Source: Sphingomonadaceae bacterium
GTDB taxonomy: Bacteria; Pseudomonadota; Alphaproteobacteria; Sphingomonadales; Sphingomonadaceae
Length of the DNA stretch: 64,000 nt
Assembly (NCBI GenBank): GCA_947473355.1
Contig: CANJCQ010000011.1
Coordinates: forward strand, 404 to 64,403
Reading direction: 5' to 3'
The notes under the pieces: generated by a model
What the model saw: only the letters and a program-made list of their open reading frames with translations
The model's database searches: none
Told to the model about the DNA's origin: nothing
Program-made: the position numbers and the translations under genes
Part shown: piece by piece, positions 22,245 to 55,959 of the stretch
How positions within the stretch are numbered: position 1 is the stretch's first letter
Layout of the letters: every line of letters starts with the position of its first letter

Positions 22245-22685
22245 TTAAGGGCTGGGCATGCTCTCGCCCGGCTGCATGATTTCAAACACATTGCCGTCCG
22301 GATCGCGGCAATAGGCGGCGCGCATGGAGCCGCCGTTGAAGGTCTGCAGCCGGCCATGGATCGGCACGCCTGCGGCCTTGAGCTTGTCAAAGGTCACCTG
22401 GACATCGTCGACAGTCAGCCCGAAGTGCGAAATGCCCCGGTCGCTGACCGGGTAGGCGGGATCCTTGGGCTTGCTATCCGCGAACTCGAACAGCTCGAGC
22501 CACAGATTGCCGCCTGCGATCATGCACATGCGGCCATGCACTTCGGGAATGTCCATGATTTCGGAGAACTGCGGCCCGCTGAACGGAAATGGATCGCCGA
22601 GCGGCTCCATGCCGAACATCTCGCGGTAGAAAGCCATTGAGCGGTCGAGGTCGGTGACCGATATGCCGACGTGATTGAATTTCAT
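22245..22685 (-). CDS. VOC (glyoxalase/bleomycin resistance) family protein
   Basis: NHVGISV.DL.RS..FY, HFGL.V, Y.RDPDGN.FE. Confidence 0.9.
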   Translation of the reverse strand: MKFNHVGISVTDLDRSMAFYREMFGMEPLGDPFPFSGPQFSEIMDIPEVHGRMCMIAGGNLWLELFEFADSKPKDPAYPVSDRGISHFGLTVDDVQVTFDKLKAAGVPIHGRLQTFNGGSMRAAYCRDPDGNVFEIMQPGESMPSP

Positions 22686-23924: not shown

Positions 23925-26069
23925 ATGGCAGACCGCGATATCCTGATCGGCGTCGATGTCGGCGGCACATTCACCGATGCCGTGGTGATGGTCGGCGGCG
24001 CGAGCTTCCGCGCCAAATCGCCCAGCACCTATCCCGAGATCGGGCGCGGGGTGCTGGCGGCTTGCGAGCTGGCGGCGCGCGCATCGGGGCAGGAACTGGC
24101 CGAGCTGCTGCCGCGCGTTAAGAAATTCGGGCTGGGGACGACGGCCGTGACCAATGTCATCGCCACCCGCACGGGGCTGAAGACCGGGCTCGTGACCACC
24201 AAAGGCTTCGAGGAAACCCTGCGGCTCGCGCGCGGGCGCACCAGTGAGCAGGATGGCTGGCTGATGCCGGTCGATGCACTGGTCGAGGCGCGGGCGATTG
24301 TCGGGATCGACGAGCGGATCGACCGGGACGGCGGAGTGCTCAAAGCACTCGATCCGGCCGATGTGGTCAGGGCCGGACGCTATCTGGCCGATGAGGTCGG
24401 GGTGGAGAGCATCGCCGTCTCCTTCCTGTGGTCGTTCCTCAACGAGGACCATGAGCGAGAGGCGGCGCGGCTGTTGCGGGAGGCTTTGCCGGGAATGCCG
24501 ATCTCCTCCGGGGTCGAACTGCGCCCGGTGATCCGCGAATATGAACGCACCACGCTTGCCGTGCTCAATGCCTATGCCACCGGCGCCTATCGCGGGGTCG
24601 ACGGCTTAGCTGCGCAATTGCGCGAGGCCGGCCTCGCCGCGCCTGTGCTGCTCTGCCATTCGGGCGGCGGTGCGATTTCGGTCGAACAGGCGCGCGAGCA
24701 GCCGGTGTGGCTGGCGGCTTCCGGCCCGGCGGCAGGGGTTGCCGCAGCGGCGCGGATTGCGCGCGATGCGGGCGAGGACAAAGTTTTGACCTGCGATCTG
24801 GGCGGCACATCCTTCGATGTCGCGCATCTGGCGGATGGCGCCCCGGCGCGCACCCAGCGCGGCGACCTGATGGGGTTCTGGACAGCGCTACCGCGTGTCG
24901 ATGTCGAATCAGTGGGCGCGGGCGGCGGGTCGCTGGCCTGGATCGATGAACGCTCAATGCTGCGGGTCGGGCCAAGGTCGGCGGGCTCCTCGCCGGGGCC
25001 AGTTTGTTATGGGCGGGGCGGTACACAGGTGGCGCTGACCGATGCCTTGCTGGTGCTCGGCTATATCGATCCGGCGCGGTTTCTGGGTGGCACCATGGTG
25101 CTCGACCGCGAGGCGGCGTTGGCCGCTTGCGGCAAGCTGGGCGAGGCGCTGGGGCTGGATGCTGTCGATGCCGCCTGGGGCGTGCGCGAGATTGCTGTGG
25201 CCGAGATGGTCAAGGCGGTGCGAGCGCGGCTATCCAATCATGCGCTGGCTGCGGCGGAGCATTGTTTGGTGAGCTATGGCGGCTGTGGCGCGCTGTTTGC
25301 GGCGGAAGTGGCGAAGCTGGCGGGCATCCCCCGCGTGCTGGTTCCGGAGCTGGCCTCGGTGCTTTCCGCCTATGGCGCGGCGACGATGGATATCCGGCGC
25401 GAGCGGTTGACCACCTTGCTGATGAAGCTGCCGGGCGATGCGGATCAGATCGACCGCACTTTCGCCGCCCTGCGCGAAGCCGTGTGGCAGGATCTTGCGG
25501 CGGACGGCGTCGCGGAAGCAGACCGCGAAGTGCGCTTCGAGCTTGATATGCGCTGGTTCTTGCAGCGCTGGGAGCTGACCATTGCCGTGCCGGGCGAGCC
25601 GGTGCTGGGCGATGGCGGGGCCCAGGCCGAGGCCCTGTTCCGCGCCGAGTATCTGCGGCGGTTTGGCGCGGCATCGACGACGACTTCGGGGATTGTCGAG
25701 CTGGTCGGGATCAGGGCTGTGGGGGTTGGGCGGATGGAGGACGAAATCCTCCCCGAGCTTGCTCGGGGAGGGGGACCGCCCGCGCAGCGGGTGGTGGAGG
25801 GGAATCCGCAAAGTACCCCTCCGTCATCGCTGCGCGATGCCACCTCCCCGAGACAAGCTCGGGGAGGATCAAGCGAGCGTCCGGTCAGCCTCAGGCGTTC
25901 GCACCCGTCCGAACCTATCGAAGTTCACGACACTGCCACCCTCGCCCCCGGCGACCACTTCACCGGTCCGGCGCTGGTCGATTCATCGGACACGACAATC
26001 TGGGTGCCCAAGGGTATGACGGCCCGAGTCGATCCGAACCGCACTCTGGTTATCGAGGTCTGCACATGA
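23925..26069 (+). CDS. Hydantoinase/oxoprolinase A subunit (ATP-binding; AcxA/ApcC-like)
   Basis: GVDVGGTFTD, GTTAVTN, TTKGF.E, SGPAAG, DLGGTSFD, GAGGGS, GP.SAGS.PGPVCYG, SAYG. Contains an in-frame palindromic insert. Confidence 0.93.
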   Translation: MADRDILIGVDVGGTFTDAVVMVGGASFRAKSPSTYPEIGRGVLAACELAARASGQELAELLPRVKKFGLGTTAVTNVIATRTGLKTGLVTTKGFEETLRLARGRTSEQDGWLMPVDALVEARAIVGIDERIDRDGGVLKALDPADVVRAGRYLADEVGVESIAVSFLWSFLNEDHEREAARLLREALPGMPISSGVELRPVIREYERTTLAVLNAYATGAYRGVDGLAAQLREAGLAAPVLLCHSGGGAISVEQAREQPVWLAASGPAAGVAAAARIARDAGEDKVLTCDLGGTSFDVAHLADGAPARTQRGDLMGFWTALPRVDVESVGAGGGSLAWIDERSMLRVGPRSAGSSPGPVCYGRGGTQVALTDALLVLGYIDPARFLGGTMVLDREAALAACGKLGEALGLDAVDAAWGVREIAVAEMVKAVRARLSNHALAAAEHCLVSYGGCGALFAAEVAKLAGIPRVLVPELASVLSAYGAATMDIRRERLTTLLMKLPGDADQIDRTFAALREAVWQDLAADGVAEADREVRFELDMRWFLQRWELTIAVPGEPVLGDGGAQAEALFRAEYLRRFGAASTTTSGIVELVGIRAVGVGRMEDEILPELARGGGPPAQRVVEGNPQSTPPSSLRDATSPRQARGGSSERPVSLRRSHPSEPIEVHDTATLAPGDHFTGPALVDSSDTTIWVPKGMTARVDPNRTLVIEVCT
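25746..25869. repeat. Family C palindromic element inserted in frame within the hydantoinase A gene
   Basis: ATCCTCCCCGAGCTTGCTCGGGGAGG ... CCTCCCCGAGACAAGCTCGGGGAGGAT terminal inverted repeats; translated as ILPELARGGGPPAQRVVEGNPQSTPPSSLRDATSPRQARGG. Confidence 0.85.
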
Positions 26070-52817: not shown

Positions 52818-55800
52818 TCACCCCAACCGCGCCAAGGCGGCACCCAGCCGCTCGGCCTCCGCTGCATGCATGGCATGATCGGCGCGGGCCTTTTCGACTG
52901 CCTCGGGTTTGGCCTTTTCGACAAACGAAGGATTGTTCAGGCGGCCTTCGAGTGACTTGGCCTCCTTGGTGGAAACCTCCAGCGCCTTGGCGAGGCGGGC
53001 CTTTTCGGCGGCGATATCGACCACGCCTTCCAGCGGCACGATCAGGTTGGCGTCCCCTGCGCCGATTTGCATCGCCGCACCTTGCGGGGCCGAATCGAAA
53101 CGGATCGCCGAGAGCCGGGCCAGCCGGTCGATGGCGCCGGGATTGGCCTCGATGGTGGCGCGCGTCGCAGGGCTGGGATCGGACAGGTAGGCTTCGAGCT
53201 TGGCGCCCGGCGCGATGCCGAGCTCGTTCTTGGCAGTGCGCAGGTTGCCGACCAGCGCGATCAGCCATTCGACCTCGCGCTTGGCTGCGGGATCGACTGC
53301 AGCGCCCGGCTCGGGCCACTTGGCCGTAATCAGCGGATAGTCTGCCCGCTCGCCCAAGGCCCCCCACAGCTCCTCGGTGACGAAGGGCATGAACGGGTGC
53401 AGCATGACCAGGATCTGGTCGAGCACCCAGCCGGCGACTGCCTTGGTCTCTTCATCGAACGAACCCTTGATCAGTTCGATATACCAGTCGCAGAACTGGT
53501 CCCACACGAAGTGATAGATCGTATTGGCCGCTGCATCGAAACGCAGGTCGGCCATGGCCTTGTCGAGCGCCTCGAGCGTTTCGACGACTTCGCCGATGAT
53601 CCACTTGTTGACCGCCAGCGTGGCCGGGGGCGCGGCCAGCGATGAGCTCGCCCCGATCCCGTTCGACTGGCAGAACCTTGCGGCGTTCCACAGCTTGGTG
53701 GCAAAGTTGCGATAGCCTTCGACGCGGGCCTTATCCATCTTCACGTCGCGGCCCTGGCTTTCCATCGAGGCCATGAAGAAGCGCAGCGCGTCGGCGCCGT
53801 ATTCGTCGATTAGCACCAGCGGATCGTCGACATTGCCCTTGCTCTTGGACATCTTCTGACCATCGGCAGCGCGGACCAGGCCGTGCAGGTAGAGCCGTTT
53901 CCAGGGCACCTGGCCCTGATTGAAGTGCATCCCCTGCATCGCCATGCGGGCGCACCAGAAGAACAGGATGTCGAAGCCTGAGATCAGCAGGTCGTTGGGG
54001 TAGTGGCGGCCGAGCAAACCACTTTCAGTGCCCCCCAAACCCGCTCGTGCTGAGCTTGTCGAAGCACCGCTTTGTTCTTTGGGGCTGGGCGTGTGGGGCG
54101 AAGAAAAGGACGGACCTTCGACAAGCTCAGGGCGAGCGGGGTTTTGTTCCTTGGTTTCGTCCGGCCAGCCGAGCGTGGCGAAGGGCCACAGCGCGGAGGA
54201 GAACCAGGTGTCGAGGACGTCCTCGTCTCGCCAAAGGGGGATTTGCTTGTTCTTGAGTAACTTAAGAAATTCGCTCGATGCACTCGGATCATCTTCGAAC
54301 TTAGCGCCGTTCGCATTTCGTCCCTCAATCTCGACAATCCGTTCTGCGGCTGTCTTGTAGTGAACTCGAGCAAGTTCGGTTGCCTGTTCGAATGTTTCGG
54401 CAACAAAGACTGGGTTCTTACCCAAATCGGTCTTCCAACCAGCCAGCCCAAAAACTTCTGGCTGCCGTTCATCCCAAGTGGGCCCATACCAAGCCGGTAT
54501 CCTATGCCCCCACCACAATTGCCTACTCACACACCACGGCTGGATATTCTCCATCCAGTTGAAATATGTCTTCTCCCAGCTCTTGGGGACAATCTCGATC
54601 CGCCCGTCGCGCACGGCTTCGATCGGCGGCTTGGCCAAGGTCGCCGCATCGACATACCACTGGTCGGTCAGCCACGGCTCAATCACCACGCCGCCGCGGT
54701 CGCCATAAGGCGTCTGGATGACGCGGTCCTCAGCGTCCTTTTCGGTGACTTCGCCGTCCTTGGCCGTCACGCTGAAAGTCACCAGCTGGCCCAGCGCCTT
54801 CATCCGCTCGACCACCAGCTCGCGCGCGCCGTCTGTGCCGTCGCGGCGGAAGCGGTGCAGGCCCACGAATTCCGCCGGGATCATGCTGTCCGAGGTCTGG
54901 ACCACATTGGCCTCGGCATCGAACATATTGAGCATTTCGGCGGGTTTGAACCCGGCGCGCTTGCCAACCTCGAAGTCATTGAAATCATGCCCCGGCGTGA
55001 TCTTGACCGCGCCCGAGCCCAGTTCGGGATCGGCGTGTTCGTCGGCGACAATCGGAATACGTCGCCCGGTGATCGGCTGCTCGATAAATTTGCCGATGAC
55101 CGACTGGTAACGCGGGTCTTCCGCGTTCACCGCCACGGCCATATCGGCCAGCATCGTCTCGGGCCGGGTCGTCGCAACCACGATGTGATCCGCGCCGTTC
55201 GCCAGCTTCACGCCGTCCGCCAGCGCATAGCGGAAGTGCCAGAAGTGGCCTTTCACTTCCTGCGTTTCCACCTCAAGATCGCTGATCGCGGTCTTGAGCT
55301 TGGGGTCCCAGTTGACCAGCCGCTTGTCGCGATAGATCAGCCCTTGGTTGTAGAGATCGACGAAAACCTTGACCACTGCCTTGGTGAAATGCGGGTCCAT
55401 GGTGAACTGCTCTCTCGACCAGTCCATCGAGCAACCCAGCCGCCGCAGTTGCTGCGTGATCGTGCCGCCGCTTTCTTTCTTCCATTCCCACACCTTCTCG
55501 ATGAAGGCCTCGCGGGAATAGTTGGTGCGCTTGTCCTGCGCCGCTTCAAGCTGGCGTTCGACCACCATTTGCGTGGCGATGCCGGCGTGATCCGTGCCGA
55601 CCACCCACAGCGCATCCTTGCCGCGCAGGCGCTCATATCGCACGACCACGTCCTGCAAGGTGTTGTCCAGCGCATGGCCGATATGCAGGCTGCCTGTTAC
55701 ATTGGGCGGCGGGTTGACGATAGTGAAGGGCACAGCGTCAGGGCGATCCGGGCGGAACAGCCCGTTCGTTTCCCAGTGCGCATACCACTTCGCCTCGATC

Positions 55801-55841
55801 TGGGCGGGGTCGAATGTCTTGTCTAAAGGCGTTGAACTCAT
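52818..55841 (-). CDS. valS: Valine--tRNA ligase, with two atypical internal segments
   Basis: [59 protein letters not shown]-terminal coiled coil. Confidence 0.98.
54037..54143. repeat. PELVEG-type palindromic doublet inserted in frame within valS
   Basis: AAACCCGCTCGTGCTGAGCTTGTCGAAG (54037-54064) inverted with CTTCGACAAGCTCAGGGCGAGCGGGTTT (54116-54143), 2 mismatches in 28. Confidence 0.88.
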
Positions 55842-55959
55842 GGGGCGGCGCTTTGCCAGTGGTGCGGCGGACGCGCAACCCATCCCGGTCCCCCACCTGT
55901 CTGCAGCTTAGGAGTTACCCTTGCCGAGGCGCTCATTTTCCCGCATCACTCCCCCCGCA

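What the first reader, a model, noticed from the sequence alone, without database searches (positions are those of the whole stretch)
54037..54143. Palindromic element inserted in frame in the essential valS gene
Between LGWP and HYP, about 8 residues in E. coli-type ValRS as recalled, this enzyme has 52 residues. They include [36 protein letters not shown], encoded by a 107-bp doublet with 28-bp inverted arms. The arm core CTGAGCTTGTCGAAG is related to the intergenic family B core CTGAACTTGTTTCAG (PELVEG versus PELVSG). The insert lies in the catalytic Rossmann domain between DVLDTWFSS and GFDILFFW, upstream of KMSKS. An essential enzyme tolerating a translated repeat parallels Rickettsia RPEs but is little described in sphingomonads.
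Basis: partly seen in the sequence, partly recalled or inferred. Interest (0 to 1): 0.74.

Follow-up and report, generated by a model that had tools for sequence, protein, structure and literature searches.

The report
Hairpin repeat translated inside valS loop
A selfish DNA hairpin repeat, whose full-length form carries a small nuclease gene, sits in frame in a surface loop of this bacterium's only valyl-tRNA synthetase gene, and the same loop has been hit again and again by different repeat families across the bacterial family.

Summary
Window 54037-54143 is a 107-bp palindrome. It lies in frame in the only valS gene (52818-55883, minus strand) and adds about 45 residues (K578-G622) between LGWP and HYPN.

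It is one of 26 inverted doublets of a dispersed REP-type hairpin repeat (core CTGAGCTTGTCGAAG). The core has 97 hits in the genome against about 7 expected by chance.

On another contig the same two arms enclose a 0.3-kb GIY-YIG nuclease gene. Orthologues of that gene carry the same core on both sides in 20 of 30 congeneric loci. The element therefore looks like a gene-less doublet of an Ssn/SRM-like (CGTC-REP-like) system, which is a published kind.

The insert is not an assembly artefact. The same insert occurs in two independent metagenome assemblies, and the nearest relative (89% identity) has an empty 16-residue loop.

The new part is the scale of the pattern. About 23% of 200 sampled species of the family carry a hairpin insert in this same loop. 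These inserts come from at least seven repeat families, and a 119-sequence ValRS tree needs at least 32 changes of loop state.

The phenomenon itself is known from Rickettsia RPEs and from intragenic REPs catalogued in 2013. I rate this a new member of a known kind, of moderate interest.

The parts
52818..55883 (-). valS, the only valyl-tRNA synthetase gene of the genome (1021 aa). It has intact SLHIGH and KMSKS motifs and no stop or frameshift.
   Evidence: One search finds no second ValRS in the 99%-complete genome; the only other hits are paralogues at E 1e-25.
54018..54152 (-). Segment inserted relative to the empty allele of the nearest relative. It is 132-135 nt and encodes K578-G622; the boundaries are uncertain by about one codon.
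   Evidence: One search aligns the DNA with L081 (P0083, 89% identical, loop LGWPDETTLYQRHFPN). One search gives pLDDT below 50 and no secondary structure for residues 576-624.
54037..54143 (.). 107-bp palindrome: an inverted doublet of two REP-type hairpin units with their tags facing outward.
54116..54143 (-). REP unit 1 in the valS reading direction: tag AACCCCGCTCGCC plus hairpin CCTGAG-CTTGT-CGAAGG. It encodes [10 protein letters not shown].
   Evidence: The outer stem pairs covary among genomic copies (GCCCT/AGGGC versus GTGCT/AGCAC).
54037..54064 (-). REP unit 2, inverted: CTTCGACAAGCTCAGCACGAGCGGGTTT. It encodes [10 protein letters not shown], the same frame as the C-terminal tail of the GIY-YIG protein in the full-length element.
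54065..54115 (-). Spacer between the two units. Its own inverted ends (GTCCGTCCTTTTCTTCG / AAAGAACAAAGCGGTG) match the sub-terminal sequence of the full-length element. The centre varies, and its length changes by multiples of 3 among orthologues.

Best explanation
**What it is.** The palindrome is a gene-less inverted doublet of a REP-type hairpin repeat of the CGTC-REP / SRM kind. The full-length form of the same element is about 0.4 kb. It carries a roughly 100-aa single-domain GIY-YIG nuclease gene, resembling the published Ssn nucleases, between the same two inverted hairpins.

**What happened (shown).** A doublet entered the short surface loop that joins the helix after DTWFSS to the beta-strand DLLISGFD of the ValRS Rossmann fold. 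The copy has no stop codon in the valS frame, and its net length is a multiple of three.

**How it is tolerated (inferred).** It is translated as a roughly 45-residue extension that is predicted to be disordered and that the enzyme tolerates. It has been inherited vertically in a small clade.

**How it moves (inferred, not shown).** The repeat family is spread, or at least maintained, through the activity of its cognate GIY-YIG nuclease on single-stranded hairpin DNA. The insertion chemistry is unknown.

**Why this loop (mixed).** It is shown that many hairpin-repeat families have landed in this same loop. I infer that this is mainly because it is one of very few places in an essential gene where an insert survives selection. 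Some preference for the DNA at this site may add to that.
For: **Repeat family**
- The core has 97 hits and forms 26 inverted pairs in the genome. Thirteen of these pairs have the same layout as the valS copy.
- Each arm is itself a hairpin whose stem covaries among copies.

**Full-length form**
- Contig C51:217-565 has the same arms around an ORF that matches PF01541 GIY-YIG at E 2.6e-15.
- Orthologues of that gene, 50-69% identical, carry the same core on both sides in 20 of 30 loci from the genus.
- Three other small GIY-YIG genes of this genome are each flanked by another REP family.
- This gene-repeat architecture is published as Ssn/SRM (PMC11893778).
- None of the three Y1-transposase hits in the genome lies near this repeat.

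**It is an insertion**
- The nearest relative (89% identity) and most congeners have a 16-aa loop.
- The same insert, with the same arm variants, is present in two independent metagenome contigs.

**It is translated**
- More than 100 insert-bearing ValRS sequences keep the frame and have no stop.
- Length differences among orthologues are multiples of 3.
- There is a single valS with intact motifs.

**It is disordered**
- Residues 576-624 have pLDDT below 50 and no secondary structure.

**The loop is a hotspot**
- 45-46 of 200 species carry an insert there.
- Two of these inserts, checked in their own genomes, belong to dispersed families with at least 35 and at least 45 copies.
- The ValRS tree needs at least 32 changes of loop state.
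Against: - No target-site duplication or clean insertion junction is visible. In one close sister pair, 7 nt of the empty allele are replaced rather than flanked. The insertion mechanism is therefore not shown.
- Nuclease activity, and any role of the GIY-YIG protein in moving the repeat, are untested. In Neisseria the published role of Ssn is restriction of incoming single-stranded DNA, not transposition.
- The C51 protein is only about 34% identical to the NTS-type paralogue of this genome. Its membership of the Ssn family (cd10448) could not be tested.
- Translation of the insert and activity of the enzyme are inferred from sequence only.
- The structure model has moderate overall confidence (mean pLDDT 73).
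Confidence: 0.8

Rival explanations
1. Assembly artefact: the palindrome was introduced into valS by misassembly of a repeat in a 141-contig draft.
For: The genome is a fragmented draft. Repeats are frequent causes of misjoins. Raw reads could not be examined.
Against: - The frame is exactly preserved through the insert.
- The same insert, with the same arm-specific variants (GTGCT...AGCAC) and the same flanks, is present in two independent metagenome assemblies from other projects.
- Dozens of other sphingomonad ValRS carry this family in this loop.
Confidence: 0.02
2. The insert is removed before or after translation, like an intron, an excised RNA hairpin or an intein, so ValRS never carries the peptide.
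For: The RNA would form a very stable hairpin (-75 kcal/mol for the 180-nt loop region). Some other GIY-YIG enzymes are encoded in mobile introns (general knowledge).
Against: - No Rfam intron or other family reaches its threshold.
- The 45-residue peptide is far too short to hold an intein's splicing domain.
- More than 100 orthologous inserts stay in frame and free of stops, although one of three frames of arm 1 contains TGA. That pattern is expected only if the insert is translated.
Confidence: 0.04
3. The loop is an actively targeted integration site. Hairpin-repeat families recognise a DNA feature of this place, or an earlier resident hairpin attracts the next one. Selection for tolerance alone does not explain the pattern.
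For: - Occupancy is 23% across 112 genera, with at least 7 families.
- Very close sisters differ in occupant: P0003 versus P0038, and P0040 versus P0049, at about 0.04 substitutions per site.
- The flanking LGWP codons are nearly invariant at the DNA level.
Against: - No common target motif or duplication was found.
- Two other variable sites exist in the same protein, after RIPAWY and after ELIKP, as a tolerance filter would predict.
- Patchiness could also arise from recombination between alleles.
Confidence: 0.3
4. The insert has been co-opted. The peptide, or the mRNA or DNA hairpin, gives ValRS or the cell a selected function, such as regulation, a partner-binding site, or protection of valS from recombination with foreign DNA.
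For: The insert has persisted through speciation in a clade. The arms are well conserved across genera. In Neisseria, Ssn cuts repeat-bearing incoming single-stranded DNA (PMC11893778).
Against: - Turnover is fast, and unrelated families replace one another.
- Most species have an empty loop.
- The central spacer is not conserved.
- The peptide is predicted to be disordered.
Confidence: 0.1

Closest known systems
Rickettsia palindromic elements (RPEs) inserted in frame in protein genes (Ogata et al. 2000; cited from my own knowledge and through PMC3733652)
   Same: A dispersed palindromic repeat is translated inside essential genes. It sits in tolerated loops, is absent from orthologues, and is inherited vertically after insertion.
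   Different: The host is free-living and high in G+C, and the repeat sequence is different. Here a nuclease-carrying full-length form is identifiable. One loop is also hit repeatedly by many families.
CGTC-tagged REPs and their intragenic copies (Di Nocera, De Gregorio and Rocco 2013, PMC3733652)
   Same: - The repeat is alphaproteobacterial and includes sphingomonads.
- It has a tag followed by a stem of about 8-9 bp and a 5-nt loop.
- Copies occur mostly as inverted dimers.
- Intragenic dimers encode 20-30 residues.
- tRNA synthetases and DnaE2 are among the hosts.
   Different: - The tag here is CCGYYY (CCGTCT in some copies, CCGCTC in valS) rather than a clean CGTC.
- The stem holds a tandem G.A/A.G mismatch.
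- This family and valS are not in their lists.
- They found no dedicated enzyme.
Ssn nucleases with NTS/SRM hairpin repeats (Chenal et al. 2025, PMC11893778)
   Same: A small single-domain GIY-YIG gene lies between inverted copies of a hairpin repeat that is dispersed in the genome. Each paralogue has its own repeat. Sphingomonads are named among the repeat-rich hosts.
   Different: The C51 protein is a distant paralogue, and its cd10448 membership is untested. The paper reports the repeats as rarely intragenic (2% in N. meningitidis) and does not describe translated copies in essential genes.
REPIN doublets with RAYT transposases
   Same: Two REPs in inverted orientation form a longer hairpin. 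The doublet is non-autonomous, and a single-copy partner gene is flanked by the same REPs.
   Different: The partner here is a GIY-YIG nuclease, not a Y1 HUH transposase. The Y1 genes of this genome are not next to this repeat.

Membership tests
In-frame 'protein-coding palindromes' (RPE-type phenomenon) | The insert is a copy of a repeat dispersed in the genome. | tested here: met
   97 core hits and 26 inverted pairs; about 7 hits expected by scaling the shuffles.
In-frame 'protein-coding palindromes' (RPE-type phenomenon) | The host ORF stays open and in frame, and orthologues lack the insert. | tested here: met
   The empty allele occurs in the relative that is 89% identical.
In-frame 'protein-coding palindromes' (RPE-type phenomenon) | The insert lies in a surface loop and does not disturb the fold. 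| tested here: inconclusive
   It is predicted to be disordered (pLDDT below 50) and falls in a short loop of 1GAX. No coordinates were analysed and no experiment was done.
CGTC-tagged REPs (Di Nocera 2013) | An unpaired terminal tag CGTC (variants TGTC, CCTC). | tested here: inconclusive
   Copies carry CCGTCT, CCGTTT or CCGCTC before the stem. CGTC is present in some copies but not in the valS copy.
CGTC-tagged REPs (Di Nocera 2013) | A stem of 8-9 bp with a loop of 4-5 nt, mostly arranged as inverted dimers. | tested here: met
   The unit is GCCCT-GA-G / CTTGT / C-GA-AGGGC with covarying outer pairs, and there are 26 inverted dimers. The stem contains a tandem G.A mismatch.
Ssn / SRM system (Chenal 2025) | A small single-domain GIY-YIG gene flanked on both sides by inverted copies of the dispersed hairpin repeat. 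| tested here: met
   C51 in this genome and 20 of 30 congeneric loci.
Ssn / SRM system (Chenal 2025) | The protein belongs to CDD family cd10448. | not testable with these tools
   No CDD library is available. The protein matches Pfam PF01541 only and has no NCBIfam hit.
Ssn / SRM system (Chenal 2025) | Site-specific cleavage of single-stranded DNA next to the repeat. | not testable with these tools
   This needs a biochemical assay.
Classical MITE (IS-derived) | Target-site duplication and a related IS with a transposase. | tested here: not met
   No duplication is seen at the junctions. The full-length relative encodes a GIY-YIG nuclease, not a known transposase.
REPIN / RAYT | The partner gene is a Y1 (HUH) transposase flanked by the REPs. 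| tested here: not met
   Three Y1_Tnp hits exist in the genome, and none has a family core within 600 nt.

The most novel reading that the evidence does not exclude
The LGWP-HYPN loop of ValRS is a true integration hotspot. Several unrelated hairpin-repeat families, including Ssn-type ones, share a targeting rule that recognises this DNA, or they replace one another at a resident hairpin. If so, hundreds of dated gain, loss and replacement events in a single essential gene across the Sphingomonadaceae would form a natural record from which the still unknown insertion mechanism of REP/SRM repeats could be read.
Probability: 0.3. Interest if true: 0.65.

Novelty: new member of a known kind. Interest (0 to 1): 0.45.

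Why it matters
- It shows that the translated selfish palindromes first seen in Rickettsia are common in free-living sphingomonads and reach an essential aminoacyl-tRNA synthetase.
- It ties such an intragenic copy to a nuclease-carrying full-length element of the recently described Ssn type.
- It identifies one loop of ValRS that accepts 25-50 extra residues in about a quarter of the species. This is a natural map of a permissive site, useful for tagging or engineering ValRS.
- The many independent gains, losses and replacements at one site offer a way to study how REP-type repeats move, which is still unknown.

Tried and rejected
- **RNA families.** An Rfam search gave only long-hairpin noise far below threshold, so I rejected a known RNA element or intron.
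- **NCBIfam.** It has no model for the C51 protein.
- **Target-site duplication.** Alignments of empty against filled alleles show none.
- **RAYT as partner.** Rejected, because the Y1 genes are not near this repeat.
- **Single ancient insertion with vertical descent only.** Rejected for the loop as a whole, because there are at least 7 families and at least 32 state changes. It does hold locally for the window, L079 and L080.
- **Literature.** Searches for a GIY-YIG link to REPs and for valS with palindromes found no description of this valS hotspot.

Full report
**1. The observation**

The window carries valS on the minus strand at 52818-55883 (1021 aa). Pfam finds the class I synthetase core, the anticodon-binding domain and the ValRS C-terminal arm. 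A whole-genome search finds no second ValRS. The genome is 99% complete, and its other matches are paralogues at E about 1e-25.

Inside the gene, the repeat finder reports an inverted repeat with arms 54037-54079 and 54101-54143. The arms are 43 nt long, 79% complementary and 21 nt apart. As single-stranded DNA the element folds better than all 200 shuffles (z = -5.07).

The frame runs through it without a stop and reads ...[60 protein letters not shown].... T. thermophilus ValRS (1GAX) has LGWPEETEDLKAFYP at this place, and window residues 580-625 have no counterpart in it.

**2. It is a copy of a dispersed repeat**

The 15-nt core CTGAGCTTGTCGAAG occurs 97 times in the 4.05-Mb genome at up to 2 mismatches, 33 of them exact. 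Scaling from the shuffles gives about 7 expected.

The hits form 26 inverted pairs in two layouts. Thirteen pairs have the tags outside and about 66 nt between cores, like the valS copy. Thirteen have the tags inside.

An alignment of the valS-type copies gives this consensus:
- CCGYYYRCC-CTGAGCTTGTCGAAG-GGCTGTTCTTnTTCTTCG
- a variable centre
- CGAAGAAnAAGGnCnGCC-CTTCGACAAGCTCAG-GGYRRRCGG

Each arm is itself a small hairpin, GCCCT-GA-G / CTTGT / C-GA-AGGGC. Its outer pairs covary among copies (GCCCT/AGGGC versus GTGCT/AGCAC). The unit is therefore a REP-type hairpin, and the 107-bp element is an inverted doublet.

**3. The full-length form carries a nuclease gene**

On contig C51 the same two arms lie 333 nt apart. 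They enclose an ORF that matches PF01541 GIY-YIG (E 2.6e-15). The tail of that protein, KEEKDDPSTSSGQTE, is read from the arm in the same frame as [14 protein letters not shown] in ValRS.

Three further small GIY-YIG genes of this genome are each flanked by inverted copies of another REP family. These include family B and an NTS-like CGTCATCCCCGCGAAAGCGGGGACCC.

Across 60 congeneric genomes, orthologues of the C51 gene that are 50-69% identical have the same core on both sides, within about 20-150 nt, in 20 of the 30 loci fetched. The three Y1-transposase hits of the genome are not near this repeat.

This architecture is published. Chenal et al. 2025 (PMC11893778) describe Ssn, a family of small GIY-YIG nucleases that cut single-stranded DNA next to their own hairpin repeats (NTS/SRM). 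These nucleases are typically flanked by the repeats, and the paper names sphingomonads among the repeat-rich hosts. Di Nocera et al. 2013 (PMC3733652) had classed such repeats as CGTC-tagged REPs with no known enzyme. Earlier notes of this scan reached the same link. I tested it here for this family.

**4. It is a real insertion, inherited, and almost certainly translated**

In an alignment of ValRS from 29 related genomes, most have a 16-17-residue loop.

The nearest database relative, P0083, is 89% identical and reads LGWPDETTLYQRHFPN. At the DNA level the window has the same flanks plus 132-135 nt, about 54018-54152.

Two independent metagenome contigs carry the same insert at the same place, with the same arm variants. 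One is an ENA wastewater sample and the other a JGI sample. They differ from the window by indels of 9 and 18 nt in the centre.

More than 100 insert-bearing ValRS sequences keep the frame and lack stops, even though one frame of arm 1 contains TGA. That pattern is expected only if the insert is translated.

An AlphaFold2 model (mean pLDDT 73) gives residues 576-624 a pLDDT below 50 and no secondary structure. They lie between a helix at 566-572 and the strand at 632-635 that precedes GFD.

**5. The loop is a recurrent landing site**

I searched 200 species drawn evenly from 112 genera of the same family with the two flanks joined. Forty-five or 46 of them (23%) have a split match, and I fetched the DNA for these.

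All have 25-50 extra residues in this same loop, and the DNA forms strong hairpins. The inserts fall into at least seven families:

| Family (peptide signature) | Cases |
|---|---|
| PELVEG...STSSARTG (the window's family) | 4 |
| ELVSES...LKQVQDDE (family B) | 2 |
| PFASSEVE...STSLDTNG | 7 |
| PPRNGEVAARSADGG...PLHHP..GPPPRAGE | 7 |
| SPLPLAGGAGGG...PTPNPSRKREG | about 10 |
| PSPSGEGLGV...PPLKGRGL | about 10 |
| SSPSSCDGE...SPTQVVGED | 2 |

In two genomes checked, the valS insert is one of at least 35 and at least 45 dispersed copies in its own genome.

A ValRS tree of 119 sequences, built without the insert columns, needs at least 32 changes among the states 'this family', 'other insert' and 'empty'. 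Shuffled labels need 52. Very close sisters differ. P0003 carries this family and P0038 another. P0040 is empty and P0049 is filled. Each pair is about 0.04 substitutions per site apart.

Counts of changes cannot separate gains from losses, and recombination between alleles could contribute. Even so, seven families require at least seven independent insertions.

No target-site duplication or shared target motif was found.

**6. Other copies inside genes**

In this genome the same family also sits inside long ORFs that look like DnaE or DnaE2, FolC and a MiaB/RimO-type enzyme. DnaE2 is a host already listed by Di Nocera et al..

In other species ValRS has two more variable sites, after RIPAWY and after ELIKP in the anticodon-binding domain. 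Some of these hold hairpin-repeat peptides.

**7. Verdict**

The element is an in-frame, inherited, gene-less doublet of an Ssn/SRM-like REP family. It lies in a tolerated loop of the essential ValRS.

Both the phenomenon and the nuclease-repeat partnership are known. That is why I class this as a new member of a known kind.

What I could not find described is the repeated use of this one loop by many repeat families in about a quarter of the species of a bacterial family. Whether that reflects tolerance alone or real targeting is open. I give active targeting about 30%.

Noticed in passing
window 54240-54480 (valS residues about 468-549): There is a second variable insertion site right after RIPAWY. 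The window has about 54 more residues there than 1GAX, in a stretch of visibly lower G+C. Only part of the genus has an expansion there, and the sequences are unrelated between species. Another first-stage note already flags it.
   Followed up: partly
other species' ValRS (P0012, P0017, P0025, P0027, P0032, P0043), after CDWYLELIKP: A third site, in the anticodon-binding domain, also holds hairpin-repeat peptides. Examples are TVRAEPVEAPSFSS..ASTSSARTG and PPRDGEVAD..PLHHPADGPPPRAGE.
   Followed up: no
genome contigs C61:17450-17514, C8:55258-55344, C9:45838-45853: Copies of the same repeat family lie inside long ORFs that look like DNA polymerase III alpha (DnaE/DnaE2, 1186 aa), FolC (480 aa) and a MiaB/RimO-type radical SAM enzyme. 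I identified these by eye from flanking motifs and did not run them against Pfam.
   Followed up: partly
genome contigs C33:24322-24519, C41:18722-18970, C29:6239-6436: Three more small GIY-YIG genes are each flanked by inverted copies of a different REP family. These are family B, an NTS-like CGTCATCCCCGCGAAAGCGGGGACCC, and GTTCCCCCGCGAAGGCGGGGGCCTCAGG. The C29 gene has an internal stop. A fifth paralogue, on C25, has no such flanks.
   Followed up: partly
window 22378-22392: A lone degenerate copy of the core (TTGAGCTTGTCAAAG, 2 mismatches) is the only other hit in the window.
   Followed up: no
window 25746-25869: Another first-stage note reports a 124-bp palindromic element translated in frame in a hydantoinase A gene of the same window. 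I did not examine it.
   Followed up: no
protein P0002 (database MAG, named Croceibacterium sp.): This 779-aa 'partial ValRS' repeats the region from TLGWP to the C-terminal part twice, once with a hairpin insert and once with an empty loop. It looks like a chimeric assembly of two alleles.
   Followed up: no
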